A stretch of DNA of 46,106 nucleotides from a virus. Taxonomy: Duplodnaviria > Heunggongvirae > Uroviricota > Caudoviricetes. A program made the position numbers and the translations under genes. The notes under the pieces were generated by a model, which was not told the origin of the DNA, did no database searches, and worked only from the letters and a program-made list of their open reading frames with translations. This document shows positions 1 through 35,200 of this stretch, one piece after another; the stretch's first letter is position 1, and the number at the start of each line of letters is the position of its first letter. The stretch is taken from IMG/VR virus record IMGVR_UViG_2563366942_000012. One strand, 5' to 3'.

Positions 1-1131
1 TCAAATGACCAGTTTTTTCCATTCCTTACCGCGTGCGTCGTTGTAAATATCGGTCATTTTTTGATTCGAATGGCCTAGCAAAATTTTGGTATCAACCCCC
101 TGCTCTCTGAACAATCGCTCTGATAAAGATCTCTGCTCATGGAAAGAGGGAGGGGTGCCATTAGCACGCCAGTTGTAATCCACAGAATCCCGGGCTTTTT
201 TAAATGCAACGGTTAATGTTGCTGGCTTAACCATCCCGCCGCGCTTAGCTGTCCCTTTCGCGTGATGGTGGTGCAATAGCCACGGACTAAGAACGCAATC
301 GCGGCAGGATGACACCACATCATCTAGGGTGAGATTTAATTTATCGCAACGCAGAGCCAGAGGGATGGCAATCCGGGTTCCTGTTTTTTGCTGTTCGACA
401 TGAAGATAACCATCCCGGATATCCGAAAATTGCATTTTGCAAATATCTGAAAGGCGCTGGCCTGTCATCAGTGCCAGCAGCATACCGCGCTGTAAAAAGT
501 AACCATCCTTTTCCGCTGCGTTATAAATCATCATCCACTCATCAAAAGTCAGTCGCTGTCTTGATATCCGCACCTGCGGTTTTTTTGCCGATTCTGCAGG
601 GTTAAAGCCTGGCGGGACATCGCCCGTTTGCTGAGCTTCCCGGAAAACATCGATCAGTACTTTCCTGAAAATTTGTCCCATTCTGTTATGTCCTCTGGCC
701 TTGTACTCTTCCAGTACTGATACCACATCTTTTACGGTTATGGCATCTAACGGTCTGGTGCCAAAACGTTCATCAAATACCCTGAGAGGGGCCGCTTTCT
801 GTTTCAGCGTGTTGAGTTTGATCTCGCCGTTTTCATATCTTTCCTGTTGAATTTTTCTGTAATTATTCAGAAAAATGGTAACGGTTGATGAACCGCCGGT
901 ATCACTAATAATTTTCTCCTGCAGACTGAGCATTTGTTCCATTTGCTGCCGGGCAAGACGGCTGTTCGCTTCTGCTGCAATAGTTTCTGCCAGTTTCTGG
1001 TCAATACTGCCGAGACCGTGATTTTTGCCTGTTATGGGATGCCTGTAACGCCAGTAAACTTTGTTATTTCTTTTGTCAAAATACGGAGATAATCCCGGAA
1101 CATCGGTTTTATATTTTCGCGGGCGCGCCAT
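1..1131 (-). CDS. int: Phage integrase (tyrosine recombinase)
   Basis: 376 aa ORF at prophage edge, overlapped at its 5' end by an excisionase-like ORF; C-terminal region typical of tyrosine recombinases; GAGGA Shine-Dalgarno 6 nt upstream of ATG. Confidence 0.85.
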   Translation of the reverse strand: MARPRKYKTDVPGLSPYFDKRNNKVYWRYRHPITGKNHGLGSIDQKLAETIAAEANSRLARQQMEQMLSLQEKIISDTGGSSTVTIFLNNYRKIQQERYENGEIKLNTLKQKAAPLRVFDERFGTRPLDAITVKDVVSVLEEYKARGHNRMGQIFRKVLIDVFREAQQTGDVPPGFNPAESAKKPQVRISRQRLTFDEWMMIYNAAEKDGYFLQRGMLLALMTGQRLSDICKMQFSDIRDGYLHVEQQKTGTRIAIPLALRCDKLNLTLDDVVSSCRDCVLSPWLLHHHHAKGTAKRGGMVKPATLTVAFKKARDSVDYNWRANGTPPSFHEQRSLSERLFREQGVDTKILLGHSNQKMTDIYNDARGKEWKKLVI

Positions 1132-1357
1132 CTTCCAGTATCCTCTTCAAAGCAGGGTGATCTGTGGCGATCACCTCCGGCTTGTTTACCATTCCGACAA
1201 AGCGAGCTTGCGGATCCACTCGCCAGCGTCTTCCAACTTTTTTGGGGAGAGGAAATATCATTCCGGCTTTAGCGTATTTACTTAACGTACTCGGAGTAGG
1301 GACCGGTTCACTGAATTCCTCTTTTGCCCACTCAGTGAGCAGAATAAGTCTTGCCAT
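1109..1357 (-). CDS. xis: Excisionase-like DNA-binding protein
   Basis: 82 aa basic protein immediately upstream of and overlapping int; position and size typical of lambdoid Xis/AlpA-like proteins. Confidence 0.7.
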   Translation of the reverse strand: MARLILLTEWAKEEFSEPVPTPSTLSKYAKAGMIFPLPKKVGRRWRVDPQARFVGMVNKPEVIATDHPALKRILEDGAPAKI

Positions 1358-1421: not shown

Positions 1422-3893
1422 TTAAAAATCAGCCTGATTCGGGATCAGTTTTTGCCAGATAGCTGAAACGTATTTTGCCTGGTAACGGGCATCATCCAGC
1501 GCATTGTGGCGCTCACCTTCGAATGGGATAGCAGTTCTGGCATCGAAGTCTACGGCTTTCCCCAGCTCAACGATTGTGCGTACATCGCGATCGTTGCAGT
1601 AGCGCCACGGGCAGGGGATACCCTGTCGTTCGTATGAACGGCGCAAAATCGTGTTGTCGAAGTTGGCCCCATTACCCCAGACCTGAACAAAAAACTCACC
1701 GGAGTTTTCGTCGATAAATTCCCGCAATTGCAGTAGTGCATCATCTAACGGGATTTCATCGGTCATAATGGCAGACTGCGCTTCACGTGATTGCTTCAGC
1801 CACCATTTAATGACGTCACGATCAATGACTCCGCCAGCAGTATCCAGATCGATGGTCTTGCTAAATTCTGGTCCCATATCTCCGGTTTGCGGATCGAAAA
1901 ATATTGCGCCTATTGAGATAATCGGGGCATCGGGATTTTTTCCCATGGTTTCAAGGTCGATCATCAGATGAATCCCCGCTCTGCTGGTGGATGTGAGATT
2001 ATGATGACTGTTCGCCTTAATTAAGGGATCTGACGCCTCGCCAGTTTCACTATCGCTGGCATGATGCTGATTGCCGCCAGTGTTCTCCTTGTGCTGATGT
2101 GCAGTACCTTCCATTTCCTCCGGATCATTTTCCTGAACTTCAGGCTGATTCTCTTCATCGAATATTTCCTGGTATGTTGCGTCGCCCATCACCGCGCCAC
2201 AATCAGGGCAGTTGCCGCCGCCGGTCTGACCGCAGGCGGTGCAGACTTTTTCCGGTTCCTGTTGCGCCACTGGTTCAGGCTGTTTCGTTTCTGGCTCGTT
2301 TTGTAACGCATTTGGGCTGTTTTGTTCCGCTTTCTGGTCGTTCTGTTCCGTTTCTTGCTGGTTCTGGTTCACAGAATCGCGGGTTTCAATCCCCTTCACC
2401 CATTTCGGATCATTCGGGTCGCTAATCCCTGCAACAAATTCACCACGTGATGCGGCGAGCAACTGATTGGCGTCAGGCTGGCTGATATTGGCTGCCTGCA
2501 TAATTTTCTTTACTTCGTCAGCGGTAACTTTTACCGGTTCTGGTTGTTCAGAATTTTGTGCGGTATTTGCATTTTGCGGTAAGCCTGTGTATGTGCCATT
2601 TTTTCGGGCAAAATATTCTTCTTTTGTGATTTCAGTAGCCCCGGCAGCCAGCGCCTTATCCAGACCAGAAAGTTTGTTTGCGCGACCGTATTTTTCGCAA
2701 TCCTTGTCGGTGAAGAAGAAGTAGAACGGCCCCTCACGCTCTACAGATGGTTCGACTTCCACTTTGCATTCGGTTTTTTCGTTGTCCGGAATTGCCGTTT
2801 CCACTGCATCAGTTTCTGGTACTGGCGACGAGAGAGTGTCAGTTGCGCTCTGATTTGTTCCTTCATCTTCAAACACGCCCTTTGTAGTCAGGTATTCAGT
2901 AATGTATTTGTTCAGTGCCACAGGGTCTTTGTGAATGTCGATCGGACGTTCACGGACAAGGCCAAAAATAGTCTGGCGGTCGTAGCGAAGGGCATCAGGC
3001 TGTTTGCGCATTGATGCCGAGATACTCTTCCAGTCTTCGCGGTCGTTGTCGATAACTTCATTTTTTGCCCAGCGATGGATGCTGCCGTCAATGTTTCCGG
3101 CATCCACATCACCAGGCCAGAGAGCGTAGGCCAGTTCGTCATCCAGTGTTTTCCATGTCTGCTTATATTCGCGACGAATGACTGCAGTGACAGGGGGGAT
3201 TTTTTCTGCTGAGTTTTCAGTGTGCTGTCGGTGGACTCTGGCGCGGGCGAGATCAACAACAGACGTGTATTTTCCGGTTTCCTTGCGTTCACCTTCGCGA
3301 CGTTTTTTCCAGATGCGCATCTCTGCCTGAATTTCGGGCCATTTGGCACCAGGCTTACATTTATGCTTAACCCACCCGATGGCATGCAGCTTAAGCTCCG
3401 GATACATGGCGTTAACTTCTGGCATTTTCATCAACGCTTCAACGATATGTCCGTCGAATGTTGCCATGTCTTCCTGCAACAATTCCTGCGCGCTAATCAC
3501 CATATCAACGGTGATGTTTTCACATGTGTCGAACTTAACCATGACAGCGTTCTGTACTTCAGGGGCCAGCTTGTCAAAAGCGACGTTCATCGGATCTGAT
3601 TCAGTCTCAACCGGGACAAAGGAAGTAGCCCCCTCATCCCAGCGGTTTTCCTGCATATATTCAGCATCCCATGAATCGAGGGCAGGGCGGGGTATACCGG
3701 GTTTATCCTCGCAAACAAGAAATTTATAAGCGCAGTCCTGAGCAGCCGGATAATGCTCCAGGAATTGCCAGTGAAATTTTGCGCGGGCGCGACGTTCATC
3801 ACCGGCTTCAATGGCAGTGGCTACAGCGACTGCACCTTCTTCCTTTATTGCCTGTTCGTCCGGAATGGCGGCGCAAATAAAGACTTTACTCAT
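1422..3893 (-). CDS. Large putative exonuclease with C-terminal DEDDh (DnaQ-like) 3'-5' exonuclease domain; this class is often annotated as exodeoxyribonuclease VIII
   Basis: 823 aa; C-terminus has exonuclease motifs (HLMIDLETMG ... NALDDARYQAKY); a CxxC...CxxC zinc-ribbon in the middle; acidic low-complexity linker; located in the early-left operon. Confidence 0.7.
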   Translation of the reverse strand: MSKVFICAAIPDEQAIKEEGAVAVATAIEAGDERRARAKFHWQFLEHYPAAQDCAYKFLVCEDKPGIPRPALDSWDAEYMQENRWDEGATSFVPVETESDPMNVAFDKLAPEVQNAVMVKFDTCENITVDMVISAQELLQEDMATFDGHIVEALMKMPEVNAMYPELKLHAIGWVKHKCKPGAKWPEIQAEMRIWKKRREGERKETGKYTSVVDLARARVHRQHTENSAEKIPPVTAVIRREYKQTWKTLDDELAYALWPGDVDAGNIDGSIHRWAKNEVIDNDREDWKSISASMRKQPDALRYDRQTIFGLVRERPIDIHKDPVALNKYITEYLTTKGVFEDEGTNQSATDTLSSPVPETDAVETAIPDNEKTECKVEVEPSVEREGPFYFFFTDKDCEKYGRANKLSGLDKALAAGATEITKEEYFARKNGTYTGLPQNANTAQNSEQPEPVKVTADEVKKIMQAANISQPDANQLLAASRGEFVAGISDPNDPKWVKGIETRDSVNQNQQETEQNDQKAEQNSPNALQNEPETKQPEPVAQQEPEKVCTACGQTGGGNCPDCGAVMGDATYQEIFDEENQPEVQENDPEEMEGTAHQHKENTGGNQHHASDSETGEASDPLIKANSHHNLTSTSRAGIHLMIDLETMGKNPDAPIISIGAIFFDPQTGDMGPEFSKTIDLDTAGGVIDRDVIKWWLKQSREAQSAIMTDEIPLDDALLQLREFIDENSGEFFVQVWGNGANFDNTILRRSYERQGIPCPWRYCNDRDVRTIVELGKAVDFDARTAIPFEGERHNALDDARYQAKYVSAIWQKLIPNQADF

Positions 3894-3985: not shown

Positions 3986-4186
3986 TTAAAGACCTGCCGG
4001 GATTTCGCTATTATCCTGGTGAATAACTTTATCGACAGGGTAACAGTTACCGGGAATTTTCTGTTCGGTTGCTGCAGTCACACACTCCTGCATTGTCCTG
4101 TGAACACTGACTGCAATATCAACTGGCTCTCCGGAAACAAGAAAAACTGTCAGAACAAGTGCAAATGCTGTATTCATTGCCAGCAT
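3986..4186 (-). CDS. Small secreted/membrane protein immediately downstream of dicB (YdfD-like by position)
   Basis: 66 aa from internal ATG; N-terminal hydrophobic signal-like segment (MLAMNTAFALVLTVFLVSG); overlaps dicB stop by 13 nt. Confidence 0.45.
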   Translation of the reverse strand: MLAMNTAFALVLTVFLVSGEPVDIAVSVHRTMQECVTAATEQKIPGNCYPVDKVIHQDNSEIPAGL

Positions 4187-4362
4187 CCTTTTTGTATCGG
4201 ACGTAAACGGGCCAGCATTGAAAGAATGCATATTTTATTTAATAACTCCCGTTCGTGTTTTCTCTTGTTAATGGCATCTTCAGTAAATACAGGGTTACTG
4301 ATAGTGACACCAATTTCAAAACAACCTTCAGACGTATTAACGTTTGGTAATAACGTTTCCAT
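4174..4362 (-). CDS. dicB: Cell division inhibitor DicB
   Basis: 62 aa product METLLPNVNTSEGCFEIGVTISNPVFTEDAINKRK...KGCWQ is near-identical to my recollection of E. coli DicB; the listed 97 aa ORF is an upstream in-frame extension. Confidence 0.85.
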   Translation of the reverse strand: METLLPNVNTSEGCFEIGVTISNPVFTEDAINKRKHERELLNKICILSMLARLRPIQKGCWQ

Positions 4363-4536
4363 TATCGCGTCCTCAACAATGAATTTTGTGATGCGGTGCC
4401 TGGTGCCTCCAGGTGACGTTAACCAGTTAACAATTAACGCCGGATACAGAGAATCCACCCATAACACTGTTTTTGGTTTTAACTGTTCCGCGTGCGCTTA
4501 GCCGCATTCACTGCATCACAAAATTCACTTTAAAAA

Positions 4537-4589
4537 GGGTGGCAGAGCAGTCACGGAGTAGAACTGATGCCACCAAAGACTACACATGG
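4537..4589 (-). ncRNA. dicF: DicF small RNA
   Basis: Minus-strand sequence ...GGUGGCAUCAGUUCUACUCCGUGACUGCUCUGCCACCC followed by a U-run closely matches remembered DicF, including the 3' hairpin; lies just upstream of dicB as in the Qin dicB operon. Ends approximate. Confidence 0.7.
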
Positions 4590-4910
4590 ATATTGTGGCG
4601 GGCTGTCACTTAAGCGTATGGTCAGCCTGACAACCCGGTGTCCTCAAGGGGAAGGAATAACCCCGCCATACTTACCGCCGCGCCATTTCGCGGATTGCCA
4701 CAACCGGAAGCGCACGGTCGAATTAAATTTAACGACAAAGTACAGAGAGACGAGCTTCTCCGTGTGCTTTCGCGTTATGCTCTGACTTTTCAGAGAAATA
4801 TCCTTTCAGTAAACTGTCAGTGCCGGATGTTCACCCGTGTCCGGCGCACGCACTCCACTTCACCCGTGGAGAACTCCTTAATTACCAACCTTAGCTTCGT
4901 TGGTTAGCTA

Positions 4911-5129
4911 TTAACGCGGGTATGTAATCATTCTGGCAATGCTTAATGCCGCTGCTTTTTCCAGATTGGTGATATCCTGCTCCAGAGCGGACAGATTTTC
5001 AGCCTGCTTAGCCCTGGCTTCATTGGCCCATTTCAGATCCTGCGCTGCATTAATTTTCTGGCGCATCCACTCATAAAGTTCATCATCGGTATAGTCTGGC
5101 GCGATGATGACGGGTTCTCGTTTCTGCAT
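4911..5129 (-). CDS. Hypothetical small coiled-coil protein of the early-left operon
   Basis: 72 aa ORF with strong AAGGAG Shine-Dalgarno upstream; same strand as dicF/dicB. Confidence 0.5.
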   Translation of the reverse strand: MQKREPVIIAPDYTDDELYEWMRQKINAAQDLKWANEARAKQAENLSALEQDITNLEKAAALSIARMITYPR

Positions 5130-5221
5130 GTCGGCTCCTTGTGGTTAGCGTTGCCTGCTTTTAACCACGTCAGGCGAGGTGGTATCCTCTGAGGGGTCTG
5201 TTACTCGAGAGGAAATTGGTT

Positions 5222-5422
5222 ATGAGTACAATCAAGTTTTCTTGCCCAGAATGTGGTGGCGAAGTCTTTGACACATCCTTTAAGCCGCAGGGCTCTGACA
5301 GTTTCGCGGGAGCCATCTGCAAAAATTGTGGTCACCTTGTAACTGAAGATGAGTCCTCGCAGTTCGATGACGAAATCGTTGACAATATCTTCGGTGCACT
5401 CACCAGAGACTTTCTGAAGTAA
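5222..5422 (+). CDS. Small zinc-ribbon protein (CPECGG...CKNCG)
   Basis: 66 aa from ATG with GAGAGGA Shine-Dalgarno; two CxxC pairs typical of a zinc ribbon; divergent from the 4911..5129 gene. A minus-strand ORF overlaps it, so the coding strand is uncertain. Confidence 0.45.
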   Translation: MSTIKFSCPECGGEVFDTSFKPQGSDSFAGAICKNCGHLVTEDESSQFDDEIVDNIFGALTRDFLK

Positions 5423-5739
5423 AGGCGCATACCGCTTAGTTACCGCTCTGATAATTCTTACCTGTCCGGCAATGGCGCTGATGTCAATATAAAGCGCCAT
5501 TGCTGCTTCTTTGCCGATCCCGGGATGCCTTCCATTCTGATGTTTGACTTCGCCCACTGAGAAATCCTCTGTTTCCCCTTAACGCCGGGGTAGCGGAACA
5601 AAAACCTGCTGCATAGTTATTAAAGTTGAACCCTGCCGTCATGTTCTTACGCCTCGGGCTGGCTACTTAACCCCTGACCACTGCCTGGTAACTCGAAGTA
5701 TTGCCCTGCATTCTGTGGGGCGGGGTGGGTGGCAGGTAT

Positions 5740-5800
5740 ATAATGTACTTTGCGTTCATTGTTGTAAAGTACTTTTAGTACATTTTGTGTGTAAAAAAAT
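5740..5800 (-). promoter_or_regulatory. Candidate leftward early promoter/operator (PL/OL analogue)
   Basis: Inverted repeats built on TGTACT/AGTACA half-sites just downstream of the repressor gene; the same half-sites recur in the divergent region at 6290..6345. Confidence 0.45.
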
Positions 5801-5858: not shown

Positions 5859-6278
5859 TTAAGAGGCTTTTTGTTTTTTCTTTCGTGCTAACTCTTCGTA
5901 AATTGCATTGTACTTCTGTTTTTTCTCTTCAAGAGTTTTTAAAAGTTCATCTGTCTCACTGTCAGGGAGCTCGTCCAGAAGGTCAATGATGATTTTTTGT
6001 CTTGGATTTAACTCCTGATAGAAACGTACCTGTCCACTTTCTTCTGTATCCTCTCCCAAAAGATAGGTTGGTGTTGTTCCTATTAGTGTTGCTAATTCCC
6101 TTAATTTCTCCCGGCGAGGAATTGTTTCGCCATTAAACCATTTGCTAACCGCTTTTGGTGTTAATTTCATTCGACGGGCAATTTCTGCCTGCCTTCCATG
6201 TTGTTCATAACCAGCGTTTTCACAGGCTAGCGCAAGCCTACTGGCGAACTCTTTACGCGCTTTATCTTCATGAACCAT
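5859..6278 (-). CDS. cI/DicA-like prophage repressor (HTH-XRE)
   Basis: 139 aa; N-terminal helix-turn-helix (SRLALACENAGYEQHGRQAEIARRMKLTPKAVSKW); divergent from a Cro-like gene; no obvious Shine-Dalgarno, possibly leaderless. Confidence 0.8.
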   Translation of the reverse strand: MVHEDKARKEFASRLALACENAGYEQHGRQAEIARRMKLTPKAVSKWFNGETIPRREKLRELATLIGTTPTYLLGEDTEESGQVRFYQELNPRQKIIIDLLDELPDSETDELLKTLEEKKQKYNAIYEELARKKKQKAS

Positions 6279-6284
6279 AAGTTC

Positions 6285-6350
6285 AATGATATTCGCTCTT
6301 GAATGTACTGTCAGTTCTGTTATAGCATGTACTCAAAGTTCACATTGTGA
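6285..6350. promoter_or_regulatory. Divergent immunity promoter/operator region (OR; PRM/PR analogue)
   Basis: Intergenic region between divergent repressor and Cro-like genes with repeated ATGTACT operator-like half-sites and TTGAAT / TATAGC promoter-like hexamers. Confidence 0.5.
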
Positions 6351-10158: not shown

Positions 10159-10845
10159 ATGACCCCAATAAAAATATTTATGACTATTGCTGATTTCAAA
10201 CGGCCTAAATTGGAGCTCCCAAACGGGGCAAACAAACTACTACTGCACTCTTGCTGTGCTCCATGTTCCGGTGAAGTGATGGAGGCGCTTCAGGCCTCGG
10301 GAATCGACTACACCATCTTTTTCTACAACCCGAACATTCATCCTCAGAAAGAGTATTTAATTCGTAAGGATGAAAATATTCGCTTTGCTGAACAACACGG
10401 CGTGCCGTTTATCGATGCTGATTACGACACCGACAACTGGTTTGAACGTGCCAAAGGAATGGAATGGGAGCCTGAGAGGGGGATCCGTTGTACCATGTGT
10501 TTTGACATGCGTTTTGAGCGGACAGCGTTGTACGCTGCTGAAAATGGTTTCAGTGTGATCAGCAGTTCACTGGGCATTTCACGCTGGAAAAATATGCAGC
10601 AGGTTAACGAGTGTGGGCGGCGAGCTGTTGCGCATTATCCGGGTATGGTGTACTGGGATTATAACTGGCGCAAGCAGAGCGGCTCGTCCCGTATGATTGA
10701 AATCAGCAAGCGCGAAAAATTCTATCAGCAGGAATATTGTGGCTGTGTGTATTCTCTGCGCGATACCAATCTACACCGCAAATCTCAGGGACGCCCTCTT
10801 ATCAAAATTGGCCAACTCCACTACGGAAAAGAAGAGAAGGAGTGA
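10159..10845 (+). CDS. queH: QueH-like epoxyqueuosine reductase (DUF208 family)
   Basis: 228 aa with the HSCCAPCS cysteine motif near the N-terminus plus downstream Cys residues (CTMCFD, CGCVYS) characteristic of QueH; preceded by a 150 bp intergenic region; start codon uncertain (no clear Shine-Dalgarno). Confidence 0.6.
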
Positions 10846-11082
10846 TTTTATGGATCACCTTTCTGATTGATTTCATATTGGCGAGGTGACGTGAGTTAAG
10901 TAGAATGGCTGCGGGTGCTTGAGGCTATCTGTCTCAGGCATGAACACTGAAAGGCAGATAGAGAAAAGCCCCAGTTAACATTTCGCGTCCTGCAAGACGC
11001 TTAACATTAATCTGAGGCCCAATCTATGTCTCACAAATGTAGGTTAGCCTCTTACGTGCCGAAAGGCAAGGGGAAGCAGGCT

Positions 11083-11238
11083 ATGAAGCAGCAAAAGGCG
11101 ATGTTAATCGCCCTGATCGTCATCTGTTTAACCGTCATAGTGACGGCACTGGTAACGAGGAAAGACCTCTGCGAGGTACGACTCCGAACCGGCCAGACGG
11201 AGGTCGCTGTCTTCACAGCTTACGAACCTGAGGAGTAA
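11083..11238 (+). CDS. hok: Hok/Gef-family type I toxin (HokD/RelF-like)
   Basis: 51 aa MKQQKAMLIALIVICLTVIVTALVTRKDLCEVRLRTGQTEVAVFTAYEPEE matches the Hok family; in-frame upstream extension resembles a mok-like leader ORF. Confidence 0.8.
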   Translation: MKQQKAMLIALIVICLTVIVTALVTRKDLCEVRLRTGQTEVAVFTAYEPEE

Positions 11239-15447: not shown

Positions 15448-15523
15448 CGGCCCTTTAGCTCAGTGGTGAGAGCGAGCGACTCATAATCGCCAGGTCGCTG
15501 GTTCAAATCCAGCAAGGGCCACC
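15448..15523 (+). tRNA. tRNA with CAU anticodon, ileX-like (tRNA-Ile2, lysidine) rather than tRNA-Met
   Basis: 76 nt cloverleaf: acceptor GGCCCTT/AAGGGCC, anticodon loop CUCAUAA, T-loop TTCAAAT, 3' CCA; close to my recollection of E. coli ileX. Confidence 0.8.
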
Positions 15524-15530
15524 ATCACAT

Positions 15531-15607
15531 ACCGCCATTAGCTCATCAGGAAAGAGCGCCAGCTTTCGAAGCTGGTTGCGCGGAGTTCGGGTCCCCGAAG
15601 GCGGTCC
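15531..15607 (+). tRNA. tRNA-Arg-like (UCG anticodon), with non-canonical features
   Basis: 77 nt cloverleaf with anticodon loop UUUCGAA and 3' CCA, but one mismatch each in acceptor and T stems and an unusual T-loop TTCGGGT; middle tRNA of the Stx-phage-style ile-arg-arg trio. Confidence 0.55.
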
Positions 15608-15620
15608 ATTATCTGTATCC

Positions 15621-15697
15621 TGCGTTGTTAGCTCAGCCGGACAGAGCAATTGCCTTCTAAGCAATCGGTCACTGGTTCGAATCCAGTACAACGCGCC
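15621..15697 (+). tRNA. tRNA-Arg (UCU anticodon)
   Basis: 77 nt; acceptor GCGTTGT/ACAACGC, anticodon loop CUUCUAA, T-loop TTCGAAT, 3' CCA. Confidence 0.85.
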
Positions 15698-15742: not shown

Positions 15743-15957
15743 CTCACAATTCAGGCGGTTGACTGTTGTCTGGTTTGCGGGGAGTTTGTTAAAAGAAACT
15801 GGCATGGTGAATCCCCCTGTGCGGAGGGGCAATCAGCGAGTAGGTATATGGGATAATCGCGGATTCAGGTGCTGGTACTGAATTCACCGGGAGGCACCCG
15901 GCACCATGCAATGGCACATAGCGCCACTCTCCAGCCCCTCTCCGGAGGGGCTTTTCT
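15743..15957 (+). repeat. Structured repeat unit, copy 1, ending in a strong intrinsic terminator
   Basis: Shares CTCACAATTCAG...GTTGAC...GGTGAATCCCCCTG(T/A)GCGGAGGGGC...CACCGGGAGGCACCCGGCACCATG...AGCCCCTCTCCGGAGGGGCTTT with copy 2; three GC-rich hairpins, the last being a perfect 8 bp stem plus T-run. Confidence 0.7.
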
Positions 15958-16146
15958 GTGCCGGATACATCACAGTTTCTGGAACCTTAGGTACTACAGT
16001 ATCAGTCAGGGTGCTATATTTTCAGATGTGATGAAAGCCTGTCAGCAGGCAGGGCGTATCGGAAATGACCCAGTAGAGAAAACGTTGACTCAGATACCGG
16101 TGCTGAGTTACCGGGAAACCGGCATCACATGACCGCTATCCTTCCA

Positions 16147-16176
16147 GGCCCATCCGCTCCGGTGGGCCTTTTTACT
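16147..16176 (+). terminator. Rho-independent terminator between the two repeat copies
   Basis: AGGCCCA-TCCGCTCCGG-TGGGCCT hairpin followed by TTTTT. Confidence 0.6.
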
Positions 16177-16210
16177 GCAGAAAACAGGTTCCCCGTTAAA
16201 TGCTATGTTG

Positions 16211-16443
16211 CTCACAATTCAGTAAGTTGACAGTTGCCTGTCAGACTGGGCATTTGTTAAAAAAATTTCGCATGGTGAATCCCCCTGAGCGGAGGGGCGA
16301 CTGGTGACGGTATAATCTCTGATTATCAAAACGAGAATGACGCGGGTTTAGTGGCACCGGGCTGAACTCACCGGGAGGCACCCGGCACCATGTGCATGAT
16401 GATACAGATACGCGGCTTTAGCCCCTCTCCGGAGGGGCTTTCT
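16211..16443 (+). repeat. Structured repeat unit, copy 2, ending in the same terminator hairpin
   Basis: Imperfect direct repeat of 15743..15957 with the same hairpins; contains TTGACA and a perfect TATAAT hexamer (not at consensus spacing to each other). Confidence 0.7.
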
Positions 16444-16672
16444 TATGGACAAAAAAAGCCCGCGCTGGGAGACGCGGGCGGCAAGGAATAAACAATAAAA
16501 CGTGAAGTAATATTTCAGCTGGCGAATAATACCCCATAGTAATCACTCTGCGCAACTGCGCGGTCTTTTTCGAATTGCGGGCTGTAGTCTCCCTTCTGCC
16601 ATTGTCCTGTAACTTCCGGACTTCAGCCTGCTCCTTATCTGACTCACAACATTATCCCGCCCGGGAGGATTC

Positions 16673-18526
16673 ATGGCATTTAAACACTATGACGTGGTCA
16701 GGGCGGCATCGCCGTCAGACCTTGCGAAACGACTGACACAAAAACTGAAGGAGGGCTGGCAGCCGTTTGGTAGTCCGGTGGCCATAACCCCTTATACCCT
16801 GATGCAGGCGATTGCAGCAGAAGGTGATGTGGTCGTCAGTGGTGCAACTGAGCCGGAGTGGTACTACGTCATCGTACTGGCCGGGCAATCCAATGCCATG
16901 GCTTACGGTGAAGGGCTTCCGCTTCCGGATTCATACGATGCGCCCCATCCGCGCATTAAGCAACTGGCCCGTCGTAACACAGTGACTCCCGGTGGTGAAG
17001 TATGCGTATTTAACGACATCATTCCTGCTGACCATTGTCTGCATGATGTTCAGGATATGAGTACGATTAACCATCCCCGGGCTGACCTGAGCAAAGGGCA
17101 GTACGGCTGTGTCGGACAGGGCTTACATATTGCCAAAAAACTGCTTCCGTATATCCCTAATAATGCGGGGATCCTGCTGGTACCATGCTGTCGTGGTGGT
17201 TCGGCATTCACCCAGGGCACGGAGGGGACATTCAGCGAGTCCACGGGAGCCAGTCAGGATTCGGCTCGCTGGGGAGTGGGTAAGCCGTTATATCAGGATC
17301 TGCTTTTCCGCACGAAGGCAGCATTGCAGAAAAACCCGAAAAACGTTTTGCTGGCGATATGCTGGATGCAGGGGGAATTCGATATGACGAATGCCAGTTA
17401 CGCCCAGCAGCCAGCAGCATTTCTTGCAATGGTACAGCAGTTCCGTGCTGACCTTGCCGGGCTGGCGGCGCAGTGTCACGGTGGAAGTCCGGCATCAGTC
17501 CCCTGGATTTGTGGCGACACGACATACGCGTGGAAACAAGAACACGGTACGCAATATGAAGTGGTATATGGTGCATATAAAGGTAAAGAATCCCAGCAGA
17601 TTTATTTTGTTCCCTTTATGACCGATGGTAGCGGAGTTAATACACCGACAAACAACCCGTCAGAAGATCCTGATATTGCCGGGTCTGGTTATTACGGTTC
17701 GGCATCCCGAACGAACAAAAACTGGGTATCATCAAATCGCCCGACGCATTTCAGCTCATGGGCGCGTCGTGGCATTATTCCCGATCGTATGGCAACTGCT
17801 ATTCTGAACGTAGCCGGTCGCACCTTAGCCTTCATTAGTGGTAAGGCACCGGAAATCAAACCCTCGCCCGGCGGCGACACGCCATCGGGGCCGTCTGAAG
17901 ATGCATCCATACGCACAATCTCCCTGTTGCCGACAGCCGGAGACGCTGCTGCGCAGGGCTGGAGCATTAAGAATGGCGGAATTCAGTTGTCAGATGGTGT
18001 ATTTAAGATCACCAAGCAGAGCAATAAAGCCTGGTCCCTGACGCGCCCGGTGGATGACGCAGTCTCCCTGCTGACACGGGGTGGCAGACTGAGCTGTAAG
18101 TTTCGACTGTCAGGCGCACTGACCAACAACCAGTTCGGTCTGGGAATTTATCTGTATACCGATGTAGCGTTACCTGACGTCGTGGCGATGACCGGGACTG
18201 GTAACCCGTTCCTGATGTCGTTCTTCACCCAGACCACAGACGGCAAACTGAATCTGATGCATCACAAGAAAGCAGGAAACACAAAGTTGGGCGAGTTCGG
18301 GAATTACAGTAACGACTGGCAGACGCTGGAGCTGGTGTTCACCGCCGGCAGTGCCACGGTTACTCCGAAACTGAATGGAGTGGCTGGCCCGGCATTCCAG
18401 GTCATAAAAGACAGTCTGACACTGGGGCTGAATGCGCTGACGCTGACGGATATTACCAAAAATGCAGCGTATGGCGTTGAGATAGAAAGTCTGGTGCTGG
18501 AGATAAATGCACCGGCATCATCATAA
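16673..18526 (+). CDS. nanS-p: NanS-p-type sialate O-acetylesterase (SGNH/SASA domain)
   Basis: 617 aa; N-terminal MAFKHYDVVRA segment, esterase motif VIVLAGQSNAMAYGE; lies between the tRNA region and the holin as in Stx phages; GGGAGGA Shine-Dalgarno. Confidence 0.8.
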   Translation: MAFKHYDVVRAASPSDLAKRLTQKLKEGWQPFGSPVAITPYTLMQAIAAEGDVVVSGATEPEWYYVIVLAGQSNAMAYGEGLPLPDSYDAPHPRIKQLARRNTVTPGGEVCVFNDIIPADHCLHDVQDMSTINHPRADLSKGQYGCVGQGLHIAKKLLPYIPNNAGILLVPCCRGGSAFTQGTEGTFSESTGASQDSARWGVGKPLYQDLLFRTKAALQKNPKNVLLAICWMQGEFDMTNASYAQQPAAFLAMVQQFRADLAGLAAQCHGGSPASVPWICGDTTYAWKQEHGTQYEVVYGAYKGKESQQIYFVPFMTDGSGVNTPTNNPSEDPDIAGSGYYGSASRTNKNWVSSNRPTHFSSWARRGIIPDRMATAILNVAGRTLAFISGKAPEIKPSPGGDTPSGPSEDASIRTISLLPTAGDAAAQGWSIKNGGIQLSDGVFKITKQSNKAWSLTRPVDDAVSLLTRGGRLSCKFRLSGALTNNQFGLGIYLYTDVALPDVVAMTGTGNPFLMSFFTQTTDGKLNLMHHKKAGNTKLGEFGNYSNDWQTLELVFTAGSATVTPKLNGVAGPAFQVIKDSLTLGLNALTLTDITKNAAYGVEIESLVLEINAPASS

Positions 18527-32658: not shown

Positions 32659-35200
32659 TCTTGTTATTGACCTTAGTCTGGATGCTGTCCGTTTCGATGA
32701 GCAGATGAGCCGGGTAAGGCGTCATTTTTCAGGTCTGGATACCGACGCCAGAAAAACCGCCAGTGCTGTTGAACAGGGCCTGAGCCGCCAGGCGCTGGCT
32801 GCACAAAAAGCCGGGATTTCCGTCGGGCAGTATAAAGCGGCCATGCGAACCCTGCCCGCACAGTTTACGGATATCGCCACGCAGCTTGCCGGTGGTCAGA
32901 ATCCCTGGCTGATCCTGCTGCAACAGGGCGGTCAGGTGAAGGACTCCTTCGGCGGGATGATCCCCATGTTCAGGGGGCTTGCCGGTGCGATCACCCTGCC
33001 GATGGTCGGGGTCACCTCGCTGGCGGTGGCGACAGGTGCGCTGGTGTACGCCTGGTACCAGGGAGATTCCACGCTTTCAGCGTTTAATAAAACCCTGGTT
33101 CTTTCCGGTAATCAGTCCGGACTGACTGCCGATCGCATGCTGACGCTCTCCAGAGCCGGACAGGCCGCAGGGCTGACGTTTAACCAGGCGAGTGAGTCAC
33201 TGGCAGCCATGGTGAATGCCGGTGTGCGTGGTGGTGAACAGTTTGATGCCATCAACCAGAGTGTCGCGCGTTTTGCTTCTGCATCCGGTGTGGAGGTGGA
33301 CAAGGTTGCAGAGGCTTTCGGAAAACTGACCACTGACCCGACGTCGGGGCTGATTGCGATGGCGAAGCAGTTCCATAACGTGACGGCGGAGCAGATTGCG
33401 TATGTTGCTCAGTTGCAGCGTTCCGGCGATGAAGCCGGGGCATTGCAGGCGGCGAACGAGGCCGCAACGAAAGGGTTTGATGACCAGACCCGCCGCCTGA
33501 AAGAGAACATGGGCACGCTGGAGACCAGGGCAGACAGGACTGCGCGGGCATTCAAATCCATGTGGGATGCGGTGCTGGATATTGGTCGTCCTGATACCGC
33601 GCAGGAGATGCTGATTAAGGCAGAGGCTGCGTTTAAGAAAGCAGACGACATCTGGAATCTGCGCAAGGATGATTATTTTGTTAACGATGAAGCGCGGGCG
33701 CGTTACTGGGATGATCGTGAAAAGGCCCGTCTTGCGCTTGAAGCCGCCCGAAAGAAGGCTGAGCAGCAGACTCAACAGGACAAAAATGCGCAGCAGCAGA
33801 GCGATACCGAAGCGTCACGGCTGAAATATACCGAAGAGGCGCAGAAGGCTTACGAACGGCTGCAGACGCCGCTGGAGAAATATACCGCCCGTCAGGAAGA
33901 ACTGAACAAGGCACTGAAAGACGGGAAAATCCTGCAGGCGGATTACAACACGCTGATGGCGGCGGCGAAAAAGGATTATGAAGCGACGCTGAAAAAGCCG
34001 AAACAGTCCGGCGTGAAGGTGTCTGCGGGCGATCGTCAGGAGGACAGTGCTCATGCTGCCCTGCTGACGCTTCAGGCAGAACTCCGGACGCTGGAGAAGC
34101 ATGCCGGAGCGAATGAGAAAATCAGCCAGCAGCGCCGGGATTTGTGGAAGGCAGAAAGTCAGTTCGCGGTACTGGAGGAGACGGCACAACGTCGCCAGCT
34201 GTCCGCACAGGAGAAATCCCTGCTGGCGCATAAAGATGAGACGCTGGAGTACAAACGCCAGCTGGCTGCACTTGGCGACAAGGTTACGTATCAGGAGCGC
34301 CTGAACGCGCTGGCGCAGCAGGCGGATAAATTCGCACAGCAGCAACGGGCAAAACGGGCCGCCATTGATGCAAAAAACCGGGGGCTGACTGACCGGCAGG
34401 CAGCGCGGGAAGCCACGGAACAGCGCCTGAAGGAACAGTATGGCGATAATCCTCTGGCGCTGAATAACGTCATGTCAGAGCAGAAAAAGACCTGGGCGGC
34501 TGAAGACCAGCTTCGCGGGAGCTGGATGGCAGGCCTGAAGTCCGGCTGGAGTGAGTGGGAAGAGAGCGCCACGGACAGTATGTCGCAGGTAAAAAGTGCA
34601 GCCACGCAGACCTTTGATGGTATTGCACAGAATATGGCGGCGATGCTGACCGGCAGTGAGCAGAACTGGCGCAGCTTCACCCGTTCCGTGCTGTCCATGA
34701 TGACAGAAATTCTGCTTAAGCAGGCAATGGTGGGGATTGTCGGGAGTATCGGCAGCGCTATTGGCGGGGCTGTTGGTGGCGGCGCATCCGCGTCAGGCGG
34801 TACAGCCATTCAGGCAGCTGCGGCGAAATTCCATTTTGCAACCGGAGGATTTACGGGAACCGGCGGCAAATATGAGCCAGCGGGGATTGTTCACCGTGGT
34901 GAATTTGTCTTCACGAAGGAGGCGACCAGCCGGATTGGTGTCGGCAACCTGTATCGTCTGATGCGCGGGTATGCGGAAGGTGGTTATGTCGGCGGTGCCG
35001 GAAGTCCGGCGCAGATGCGGCGGGCGGAAGGTATCCGGTTTGAGCAGAACAACAGCGTGGTGATTCAGAACGACGGTATCAACGGACAGGCCGGGCCGCA
35101 GCTGATGAAAGCGGTGTATGAGATGGCCCGTAAAGGTGCGCAGGATGAGATTCAGGCGCAGATGCGTGATGGTGGCCTGTTCTCCGGAGGTGGACGATGA
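32639..35200 (+). CDS. H: Tail tape measure protein gpH
   Basis: 853 aa, same length as lambda H; Ala/Gln-rich coiled-coil; glycine-rich hydrophobic C-terminal region. Confidence 0.9.
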   Translation: MSQPVGDLVIDLSLDAVRFDEQMSRVRRHFSGLDTDARKTASAVEQGLSRQALAAQKAGISVGQYKAAMRTLPAQFTDIATQLAGGQNPWLILLQQGGQVKDSFGGMIPMFRGLAGAITLPMVGVTSLAVATGALVYAWYQGDSTLSAFNKTLVLSGNQSGLTADRMLTLSRAGQAAGLTFNQASESLAAMVNAGVRGGEQFDAINQSVARFASASGVEVDKVAEAFGKLTTDPTSGLIAMAKQFHNVTAEQIAYVAQLQRSGDEAGALQAANEAATKGFDDQTRRLKENMGTLETRADRTARAFKSMWDAVLDIGRPDTAQEMLIKAEAAFKKADDIWNLRKDDYFVNDEARARYWDDREKARLALEAARKKAEQQTQQDKNAQQQSDTEASRLKYTEEAQKAYERLQTPLEKYTARQEELNKALKDGKILQADYNTLMAAAKKDYEATLKKPKQSGVKVSAGDRQEDSAHAALLTLQAELRTLEKHAGANEKISQQRRDLWKAESQFAVLEETAQRRQLSAQEKSLLAHKDETLEYKRQLAALGDKVTYQERLNALAQQADKFAQQQRAKRAAIDAKNRGLTDRQAAREATEQRLKEQYGDNPLALNNVMSEQKKTWAAEDQLRGSWMAGLKSGWSEWEESATDSMSQVKSAATQTFDGIAQNMAAMLTGSEQNWRSFTRSVLSMMTEILLKQAMVGIVGSIGSAIGGAVGGGASASGGTAIQAAAAKFHFATGGFTGTGGKYEPAGIVHRGEFVFTKEATSRIGVGNLYRLMRGYAEGGYVGGAGSPAQMRRAEGIRFEQNNSVVIQNDGINGQAGPQLMKAVYEMARKGAQDEIQAQMRDGGLFSGGGR

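What the first reader, a model, noticed from the sequence alone, without database searches (positions are those of the whole stretch)
4170..4600. dicB and DicF sRNA embedded in the leftward early operon
Both the DicB protein and the DicF sRNA, with its 3' hairpin and U-tail, are recognisable. They lie on the same strand as, and between, the repressor-proximal genes and the exonuclease-xis-int block, the position occupied by kil in lambda. This differs from the Qin arrangement, where dicF-dicB sit in the Cro-direction dicC operon. DicB and DicF inhibit cell division; DicB is also reported to block ManYZ-dependent phage DNA entry, so the module may work in superinfection exclusion as well as host takeover.
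Basis: partly seen in the sequence, partly recalled or inferred. Interest (0 to 1): 0.45.

Follow-up and report, generated by a model that had tools for sequence, protein, structure and literature searches.

The report
Ordinary Qin-type dicF-dicB prophage module
The window really does carry the DicF small RNA and the DicB cell-division inhibitor in the repressor-controlled leftward operon of a lambda-like E. coli prophage, but this is the same well-known layout as in the K-12 Qin prophage, not a new one.

Summary
Observation confirmed. DicF lies at 4537-4588 (-), Rfam RF00039 61.1 bits against a cut-off of 48. DicB lies at 4177-4362 (-), 62 aa, Pfam 127 bits, 89% identical to K-12 DicB.

The gene order is repressor, PL-like promoter, ydfC, dicF, dicB, ydfD, exonuclease, xis, int, all on the minus strand.

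In K-12 Qin the operon runs dicA, ydfABC, dicF, dicB, ydfD, exonuclease, intQ on the dicA strand, with dicC divergent. Its promoter dicBp is described as lambda-PL-like. Phage Tritos has the same layout with DicF already annotated. About 87% of complete E. coli genomes carry the module. The window matches an ompW-adjacent prophage of APEC O18 at 99.9% over 1.3 kb.

Two smaller points are less ordinary:
- This DicF is a minority allele, found in about 4% of genomes. Nucleotides 30-36, shown experimentally to be needed for ftsZ repression, are intact. Ten of the first 12 nucleotides differ, which abolishes the predicted 13-bp xylR duplex.
- The dicF-dicB spacer shares a covarying fold with the prophage sRNA STnc100.

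Verdict: already known, low interest.

The parts
5862..6278 (-). CI/DicA-type prophage repressor (139 aa, HTH_3)
   Evidence: Pfam HTH_3 E 1.8e-9. It is 29% identical to K-12 DicA over 112 aa, E 5e-15, so it is a different immunity type with the same architecture. It lies on the same strand as dicF and dicB.
6303..6341 (.). OR-like operator repeats between the repressor and the divergent cro-like gene
   Evidence: ATGTACTGTCAGTTC and ATGTACTCAAAGTTC lie 24 nt apart. They belong to the same repeat family as the sites at 5743-5784.
5740..5784 (-). Candidate PL/dicBp-like promoter (TTTACA-17-CATTAT, 5768..5740) overlapped by two operator repeats 24 nt apart
   Evidence: Promoter scan gives 9/12 matches. 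The scan as a whole is not above shuffles, so the promoter call rests on its position and on the operator repeats it shares with the OR region. No transcript data are available.
5219..5422 (+). Antisense zinc-ribbon ORF (ECs_2282 family) in the place where Qin has ydfA and ydfB
   Evidence: NCBIfam NF047912 57.3 bits, cut-off 37. It is annotated on the opposite strand in APEC O18. It is antisense to DicF in all loci that have it.
4914..5129 (-). ydfC (72 aa)
   Evidence: 100% identical to K-12 YdfC by tblastn. The identical APEC O18 and K-12 genes are annotated as protein YdfC, WP_001171942.1.
4589..4913 (-). ydfC-dicF leader, highly conserved with Qin except for a 14-nt deletion just upstream of DicF
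   Evidence: Alignment. In K-12 this leader holds the RNase III site that makes the 190-nt DicF precursor (PMC10448788). The fold z-score is -2.0.
4537..4588 (-). DicF sRNA, minority 'type B' allele
   Evidence: Rfam 61.1 bits. Compared with K-12, 10 of the first 12 nt differ. Stem changes C18U/G50A are compensatory and U21C turns a U.G pair into C-G. The loop carries U29C. Nucleotides 30-36 (UACUCCG) are unchanged.
4532..4536 (-). U-tail of the DicF intrinsic terminator
   Evidence: Read directly from the sequence.
4363..4531 (-). Structured dicF-dicB spacer. A long closing helix starts right after the U-tail and ends about 25 nt before the dicB start codon (about 10 nt before its GAGGA ribosome-binding site). 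It is the likely RNase III substrate and has an STnc100-like fold.
   Evidence: MFE -84.8 kcal/mol, z -4.1. Sub-threshold STnc100 hits: 32.7 bits here and 34.1 bits in K-12, with a gathering score of 47. It shares a consensus structure with the two real STnc100 copies, and 12 of 30 pairs show changes on both sides.
4174..4362 (-). dicB (62 aa plus stop)
   Evidence: Pfam PF05358 127.4 bits. NCBIfam 132.7 bits. 89% identical to K-12 DicB.
3986..4177 (-). ydfD (63 aa, DUF1482); its start overlaps the dicB stop codon as ATGA
   Evidence: Pfam PF07358 88.3 bits. 94% identical to K-12 YdfD. The overlap is read.
1422..3893 (-). 823-aa exonuclease (C-terminal Rv2179c-like 3'-5' exonuclease domain); Qin's ydfE is the truncated remnant
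   Evidence: Pfam PF16473 220 bits. In Qin the annotation reads 'exonuclease, incomplete', followed by IS2.
1..1357 (-). Excisionase (1109-1357) and integrase (1-1131), the end of the leftward arm
   Evidence: Pfam Exc. APEC O18 annotates an excisionase and an integrase next to ompW.

Best explanation
This is the intact form of the Qin-type dicBF operon, in an apparently complete lambdoid prophage of the kind integrated next to ompW in E. coli.

Proposed mechanism:
1. A CI/DicA-like repressor binds repeated operators at OR and at a PL-like promoter just downstream of its own gene. This keeps the leftward operon off in the lysogen (inferred from sequence).
2. When repression is lifted, one transcript runs through ydfC, dicF, dicB, ydfD, the exonuclease, xis and int (inferred by homology with Qin).
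3. DicF is both the leaky intrinsic terminator after ydfC and an Hfq-dependent sRNA. It is released by termination or by RNase III cleavage in the long helix just downstream, and by 5' processing (shown for Qin, inferred here).
4. Its loop (UACUCCG) pairs with the ftsZ ribosome-binding site and lowers FtsZ synthesis.
5. Read-through transcripts make DicB, which with MinC blocks Z-ring assembly and also blocks ManYZ-dependent phage DNA entry (shown for K-12 DicB, inferred for this 89%-identical allele).

The module is thus the functional analogue of lambda kil, though not its homologue. The DicF allele here has a different 5' single-stranded end. It probably keeps ftsZ, and perhaps manX, as targets but has lost xylR.
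For: - Identity of DicF: Rfam hit.
- Identity of DicB: Pfam and NCBIfam hits and 89% identity to K-12 DicB.
- Gene order and strand match K-12 Qin, APEC O18, phage Tritos with DicF annotated, and 131 DicF loci.
- The same operator repeat family, with 24-nt spacing, sits at the candidate leftward promoter and at OR.
- The hairpin is kept by one compensatory and one strengthening change.
- Mutations dicF9 (nt 32-34), dicF21 (nt 30-32) and dicF23 (G36C) abolish or reduce ftsZ repression in K-12 (PMC5069750 text and supplementary oligos). Those nucleotides are unchanged in the window.
- The spacer helix is strongly predicted (z -4.1) and covaries. It starts where the published 72-nt RNase III 3' end would fall.
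- dicBp is described as PL-like and DicA-repressed, and the DicB and DicF functions are summarised, in PMC10448788.
- The dicB stop and ydfD start overlap as ATGA, and the dicB ORF is intact with a GAGGA ribosome-binding site.
Against: - There are no expression data for this prophage.
- The promoter call is a 9/12 consensus match in a scan that is not enriched over shuffles.
- The predicted ftsZ duplex of this allele is weaker than that of K-12: -21.3 against -27.9 kcal/mol, with z -1.5 against -2.9. This is due to U29C and G50A.
- The K-12 RNase E site context (AA|UUU) is replaced, and 14 nt are deleted just upstream. The 5' end and abundance of the mature RNA are therefore unknown.
- In this allele the closing helix of the spacer carries an A.C mismatch.
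- DicB differs from K-12 at 7 residues, 5 of them within the last 16 (C-terminal quarter). The effect of these changes is unknown.
Confidence: 0.85

Rival explanations
1. The arrangement is a new placement of dicF-dicB: a move from a Cro-direction operon in Qin to the kil slot of the leftward operon.
For: None found. It rests on a recalled Qin map.
Against: - The K-12 annotation shows dicC divergent and dicA, ydfABC, dicF, dicB, ydfD, exonuclease and intQ co-oriented.
- The literature calls dicBp PL-like.
- The orientation is the same in 131 loci and in phage Tritos.
Confidence: 0.02
2. In this allele the DicF sequence acts only as the ydfC terminator or attenuator and as a processing signal that gates dicB expression. 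The trans-acting sRNA function is lost or much reduced, because the 5' end and its processing site have changed.
For: - Ten of the first 12 nt differ, there is a 14-nt deletion upstream, and the RN|WUU-like context of the K-12 5' end is lost.
- The predicted ftsZ duplex is weaker and not clearly above shuffles (33/500).
- The xylR duplex is lost: -8.7 against -20.3 kcal/mol.
Against: - Nucleotides 30-36, defined by mutation as needed for ftsZ, are intact.
- Predicted pykA and manX pairing through the loop and 3' region is retained, with z -4.4 and -2.7.
- K-12 DicF3, mutated in the 5' seed, still represses ftsZ.
- The allele recurs in about 209 of 5426 genomes with its hairpin compensated.
Confidence: 0.12
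3. The module is a decaying remnant with no function in this prophage.
For: Qin itself is defective, and the operon is toxic when expressed.
Against: - DicB and YdfD give full-length family matches with intact ORFs.
- The dicB stop and ydfD start are coupled.
- The exonuclease (823 aa), xis and int are intact, unlike in Qin.
- The stem change is compensatory.
- The same module occurs in sequenced phage records such as Tritos and vB_EcoS-813R8.
Confidence: 0.03

Closest known systems
dicBF operon (ydfABC-dicF-dicB-ydfD-ydfE) of the cryptic prophage Qin, E. coli K-12
   Same: - Same genes from ydfC to the exonuclease, in the same order.
- Same strand relative to the repressor and the integrase.
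- 93.3% DNA identity over the module.
- The DicF hairpin, the ftsZ-pairing loop and the structured dicF-dicB spacer are conserved.
   Different: - Here the exonuclease, xis and int are intact; Qin has a truncated ydfE, IS2 and a partial intQ.
- ydfA and ydfB are replaced by an antisense zinc-ribbon ORF.
- The repressor is only 29% identical to DicA.
- The DicF 5' end differs at 10 of 12 nt, with a 14-nt deletion upstream.
Escherichia phage Tritos (OV696610) and the ompW-integrated prophages (PPompW series; APEC O18 prophage)
   Same: - Tritos has CI, small ORFs, ydfC, DicF (annotated as misc_RNA), dicB, ydfD, exonuclease, xis and int, with a divergent Cro.
- The APEC O18 prophage is 99.9% identical over the module and lies next to ompW.
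- The PPompW phages share 92.5% identity over 35% of the first 25 kb.
   Different: Tritos carries the common type A DicF and has ydfA/ydfB-like ORFs. In the RefSeq records listed, including type B carriers, no feature is annotated over DicF.
Lambda kil (and Rac kilR)
   Same: A small division inhibitor encoded in the repressor-controlled leftward operon, between the immunity region and the recombination, xis and int genes. That lambda Kil targets FtsZ is from my own knowledge, not a tool result.
   Different: There is no sequence similarity between DicB and Kil. Lambda has no DicF-like sRNA partner. The mechanisms differ: DicB acts through MinC.
STnc100 (RF02076) / PasD prophage sRNAs
   Same: The dicF-dicB spacer shares the closing helix, the GGUGAAU motif, a 5' hairpin, a middle hairpin and the CACCnGGAGGCACCnGGCACC hairpin. 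Changes between the two groups are compensatory.
   Different: - It scores below the Rfam gathering threshold (32.7 against 47).
- It lacks the STnc100 3' terminator hairpin and runs into the dicB ribosome-binding site instead.
- It lies in the early-left operon rather than the late region.

Membership tests
DicF RNA (Rfam RF00039) | Covariance-model score at or above the curated gathering score over the full model | tested here: met
   61.1 bits against 48, model positions 1-52 of 52. The K-12 copy scores 76.7.
DicF RNA (Rfam RF00039) | 3' Rho-independent terminator hairpin followed by a U run | tested here: met
   Same hairpin as K-12, -15.8 against -15.9 kcal/mol. 98.8% of cells are paired across 15 alleles, with C-G to U-A compensation in type B. 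UUUUU lies at 4536-4532.
DicF RNA (Rfam RF00039) | Loop nucleotides that pair with the ftsZ ribosome-binding site (nt 30-36, defined by the dicF9, dicF21 and dicF23 mutants) | tested here: met
   UACUCCG is identical to K-12. The mutant positions were read from oligo sequences in the PMC5069750 supplement. The flanking pairs are weakened by U29C and G50A: -21.3 against -27.9 kcal/mol.
DicF RNA (Rfam RF00039) | 5' single-stranded seed that pairs with xylR (nt 4-18; dicF3 and dicF11 mutants) | tested here: not met
   The K-12 13-bp duplex scores -20.3 kcal/mol (z -3.75). The window allele scores -8.7 (z +0.9). This defines one target interaction, not the family itself.
DicF RNA (Rfam RF00039) | [quoted passage not shown] | not testable with these tools
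   Shown only for K-12. Here the context of the 5' processing site has changed.
DicB protein (Pfam PF05358 / NCBIfam NF049927) | Full-length match above the curated cut-offs | tested here: met
   127.4 bits with a cut-off of 27, over 1-62/62. 132.7 bits with a cut-off of 100. 89% identical to K-12 DicB.
DicB protein (Pfam PF05358 / NCBIfam NF049927) | MinC-dependent inhibition of Z-ring assembly; inhibition of ManYZ-dependent phage entry | not testable with these tools
   Published for K-12 DicB. Seven substitutions here, five of them within the last 16 residues, have not been tested.
Qin-type dicBF operon | Order repressor, PL-like promoter, (ydfAB) ydfC, dicF, dicB, ydfD, exonuclease on one strand, with the cro-like gene divergent | tested here: met
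   ydfA and ydfB are absent here; an antisense zinc-ribbon ORF takes their place.
Qin-type dicBF operon | Promoter repressed by the prophage repressor | tested here: inconclusive
   Operator-like repeats are shared between the candidate promoter and OR. There are no binding or expression data, and the promoter scan is not above background.
Lambda Kil family | Sequence homology to lambda Kil | tested here: not met
   BLASTP finds no alignment with E <= 100. The analogy is positional and functional only.
STnc100 (RF02076), for the dicF-dicB spacer | Score at or above the gathering score | tested here: not met
   32.7 bits (window) and 34.1 bits (K-12) against 47. Shared structure with compensatory changes supports distant relatedness, not membership.

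The most novel reading that the evidence does not exclude
Two readings go beyond what is known and are not excluded.

(1) The 'type B' DicF allele is present in about 4% of complete E. coli genomes. It is a re-targeted sRNA: it keeps the ftsZ-pairing loop, but its swapped 5' seed drops xylR and may pick up other mRNAs. This would be prophage sRNA seed swapping within one family.

(2) The conserved dicF-dicB spacer is a diverged member of the STnc100/PasD structured-RNA lineage. This would imply a reusable RNase III-processed RNA module that prophages place both in the early-left operon and in the late region.
Probability: 0.45. Interest if true: 0.3.

Novelty: already known. Interest (0 to 1): 0.13.

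Why it matters
As stated, the finding matters little. The dicBF operon, its PL-like control, its position ahead of exonuclease-xis-int, and its spread among E. coli prophages are all published, and some phage records already annotate them. The useful outcome is a correction: Qin is a decayed copy of exactly this arrangement, so no relocation needs explaining.

Two side observations could interest sRNA specialists. First, there is a recurrent DicF allele with a different 5' seed, which should split the ftsZ effect from the metabolic targets in natural strains. Second, the dicF-dicB spacer is structurally related to STnc100, an sRNA family with no established function.

Tried and rejected
- Whole-length RNAduplex of DicF against its targets gave over-extended, uninformative duplexes. 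I replaced it with segment-wise duplexes and shuffle controls.
- The simple terminator scan did not flag the DicF hairpin, because of its internal loop and 11-nt apical loop. Its promoter hits are not enriched over shuffles.
- The genome-contig scan with a degenerate 20-mer returned Escherichia and Shigella plus matches in unrelated taxa or MAGs (Nonomuraea, an archaeon, Veillonella, Collinsella). These are probably chance or contamination, and I did not follow them up.
- The IMG/VR loci were fetched by an exact 20-nt core match. Invariance of that core is therefore by construction and is not used as evidence.
- Melson & Kendall 2019 (the EHEC dicF copies) is not held. I could not check whether the type B allele has been described there. 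Literature searches found no mention of it or of a link between DicF and STnc100.
- DicB against lambda Kil: no similarity.
- The 118-aa minus-strand ORF 5201-5557 and the 52-aa ORF 5484-5642 have no family match. I treated them as unsupported.
- I did not build a reciprocal covariance model of the spacer. The joint consensus fold was judged sufficient for a side observation.

Full report
**1. What is there**

An Rfam scan of the whole window finds one DicF match, at 4537-4588 on the minus strand. It covers the full model and scores 61.1 bits against a gathering score of 48 (repeated on sub-regions). The RNA ends in the expected hairpin, followed by UUUUU at 4536-4532.

Downstream on the same strand, 4177-4362 encodes a 62-aa protein.
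- It matches Pfam DicB over its whole length at 127.4 bits.
- It matches NCBIfam CellDivInhibDicB at 132.7 bits, with a cut-off of 100.
- It is 55/62 identical to K-12 DicB.

The stop codon of dicB overlaps the start of a 63-aa DUF1482 protein, YdfD, as ATGA (3986-4177).

**2. Context**

Reading leftward on the minus strand, the window has:
- a 139-aa HTH repressor (5862-6278);
- a candidate promoter, TTTACA-17-CATTAT (5768..5740);
- an antisense zinc-ribbon ORF (5219-5422, plus strand);
- ydfC (4914-5129);
- a 325-nt leader;
- dicF;
- a 169-nt structured spacer;
- dicB, then ydfD;
- an 823-aa exonuclease (1422-3893);
- xis and int.

A cro-like gene, a YdaT-like gene and replication genes diverge on the plus strand.

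The candidate promoter is overlapped by two copies of an operator-like repeat, ATGTACTnnnnnGTTC and a palindromic relative, spaced 24 nt apart. Two more copies with the same spacing lie between the repressor and the cro-like gene. This is the expected OL/OR pattern. However, the promoter scan itself is not enriched over shuffles, and I have no transcript data.

The 1.3-kb module is 99.9% identical to a prophage of E. coli APEC O18 that ends next to ompW. The first 25 kb resemble the PPompW phages at 92.5% identity over 35% of the query.

**3. The comparison with Qin**

The K-12 annotation shows otherwise. dicC is on one strand. On the other strand, in order, are dicA, ydfA, ydfB, ydfC, dicF (Rfam hit at L001 6561-6612), dicB, ydfD, a truncated exonuclease, IS2 and the partial integrase.

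Ragunathan et al. 2023 state that dicBp is similar to lambda PL and is repressed by DicA. They also say that the dicA-dicC locus resembles a lambdoid immunity region (PMC10448788).

Phage Tritos has CI, two small ORFs, ydfC, DicF (annotated as a misc_RNA), dicB, ydfD, exonuclease, excisionase and integrase on one strand, with a divergent Cro.

In all of them, every detectable homologue of the repressor, YdfA/B/C, DicB, YdfD and the exonuclease lies on the DicF strand.

The window therefore shows the intact form of the Qin arrangement. Qin is the decayed copy. The module, or part of it, is present in 4697 of 5426 complete E. coli genomes. Its spread among prophages was already described by Balasubramanian et al. 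2016 (PMC5069750).

**4. The kil analogy**

In lambda, kil (33187-33330) lies between cIII and gam in the PL operon, upstream of bet, exo, xis and int. The positional analogy is therefore fair. DicB and Kil show no sequence similarity, so this is analogy, not homology.

**5.

The supplementary oligos of PMC5069750 give the mutant sequences.

| Mutant | Change | Effect |
|---|---|---|
| dicF9 | nt 32-34 CUC to GAG | abolishes ftsZ regulation |
| dicF21 | nt 30-32 UAC to AUG | abolishes ftsZ and pykA regulation |
| dicF23 | G36C | weakens ftsZ regulation; restored by a compensatory ftsZ mutation |
| dicF3 | nt 6-8 GGU to CCA | abolishes xylR and pykA regulation, but not ftsZ |
| dicF11 | G7C | abolishes xylR regulation |

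The effects are taken from the text, except dicF11, where the passages I read show only that it was tested against xylR with a compensatory xylR mutant. In the window, nt 30-36 (UACUCCG) are unchanged. The refutation criterion is therefore not met.

The allele is nevertheless not the K-12 one.
- 10 of the first 12 nt differ.
- 14 nt just upstream are deleted.
- The stem carries C18U with G50A, which is compensatory.
- U21C turns a U.G pair into C-G.
- The loop carries U29C.

Segment-wise duplex predictions with shuffle controls give:

| Target and DicF segment | K-12 | Window |
|---|---|---|
| ftsZ, loop and 3' region | -27.9 kcal/mol (5/500 shuffles as good) | -21.3 kcal/mol (33/500) |
| xylR, 5' seed | -20.3 kcal/mol (1/500) | -8.7 kcal/mol (410/500) |
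| pykA, loop and 3' region | -26.4 kcal/mol | -25.9 kcal/mol |
| manX, loop and 3' region | -33.9 kcal/mol | -29.9 kcal/mol |

I infer that ftsZ repression is probably kept, perhaps weaker, and that xylR regulation is probably lost. pykA is uncertain, because it also needs the 5' seed in K-12.

The 5' end of the mature RNA is unknown, because the sequence around the K-12 RNase E site has changed.

This 'type B' allele is a minority but recurs. About 209 of 5426 genomes match a type-B-specific 116-nt query at 90% identity or better. Six of the 131 loci carry it. In the other type B loci it is linked to DicB variants only 61-64% identical to K-12 DicB, so the region is mosaic.

**6. Processing**

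In K-12, DicF arises from the polycistronic dicBp transcript. The steps are termination at its own hairpin, RNase E cleavage at the 5' end, and RNase III cleavage both upstream (giving the 190-nt precursor) and downstream (giving the 72-nt form).

In the window, the spacer after the U-tail folds into a multi-branched domain. It is closed by a long helix, GUGAAUUUUGUGAUGC paired with GCAUCACAAAAUUCAU. The fold has a z-score of -4.1. The helix starts where a 3' end 19 nt past the terminator would fall, and it ends about 25 nt before the dicB start codon, about 10 nt before its ribosome-binding site. The inner part of the helix covaries among alleles, for example C-G, U-A and U.G at one position. 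This fits an RNase III substrate that separates DicF from the dicB mRNA. That is inference, not demonstration.

**7. A side observation**

The same spacer gives sub-threshold matches to the prophage sRNA family STnc100. It scores 32.7 bits here and 34.1 bits in K-12, against a gathering score of 47, with E about 1e-5 for the short searches.

I aligned 12 spacer alleles with the two genuine STnc100 copies of the window (15773-15963 and 16241-16450). They share a consensus fold of a closing helix and three hairpins. Changes on both sides occur in 12 of 30 pairs, mostly between the two groups.

I found no paper that links the two. The spacer is not a member by the Rfam threshold, but distant relatedness is likely.

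**8. Verdict**

The sequence observation is right. The functional reading (division block, possible ManYZ-linked exclusion) is a fair transfer from Qin. The claimed difference from Qin is wrong.

The feature is already known, and some records already annotate it. Interest is low. The modest open points are the variant DicF 5' end and the STnc100-like spacer.

Noticed in passing
window 4343-4546 (-); L001 6624-6764: The conserved dicF-dicB spacer gives sub-threshold STnc100 (RF02076) matches (32.7 and 34.1 bits, gathering score 47). It shares a covarying consensus fold with the two real STnc100 copies in the window. No paper I found links DicF and STnc100.
   Followed up: partly
window 4577-4602 (-): The DicF allele here ('type B') differs from K-12 at 10 of its first 12 nt and has a 14-nt deletion just upstream. 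About 209 of 5426 complete E. coli genomes carry it. Other type B loci (L004, L022, L076, L113) are linked to DicB variants only 61-64% identical to K-12 DicB.
   Followed up: partly
window 5219-5422 (+): A 67-aa CxxC zinc-ribbon ORF (NCBIfam ECs_2282 family, 57 bits) lies antisense inside the leftward operon, where Qin has ydfA and ydfB. A transcript from it would converge on the dicBF transcript.
   Followed up: partly
window 15449-15695 and 15773-16450 (+): Three tRNA genes are followed by two tandem STnc100 sRNA copies (136 and 165 bits). They lie upstream of a 617-aa ORF (16673-18526), after the Q antiterminator gene. In Stx phages this slot holds the stx genes.
   Followed up: no
window 10913-11238 (+): A sok antitoxin RNA (120.5 bits) overlaps a hokD-like toxin ORF. 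This is a type I toxin-antitoxin pair within the prophage early-right region, as in Qin.
   Followed up: no
window 10159-10845 (+): A 228-aa ORF corresponds to the gene annotated as epoxyqueuosine reductase QueH in the APEC O18 prophage. It is a tRNA-modification enzyme carried as prophage cargo.
   Followed up: no
window 4508 with 4389 (-), spacer closing helix: In this allele and in APEC O18 the closing helix has an A.C mismatch (GAUGCAGUG / CACCGCAUC). Other alleles have C-G/G-C, U-A or wobble pairs at these positions. The window also lacks one C (GACAG-CCCGCC) that APEC O18 has just upstream of DicF.
   Followed up: no
window 1422-3893 (-): The 823-aa 'exonuclease' has a recognisable 3'-5' exonuclease domain only in its last ~180 residues (Rv2179c-like). 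The first ~640 residues, acidic and Q/E/P-rich in parts, match no Pfam family.
   Followed up: no
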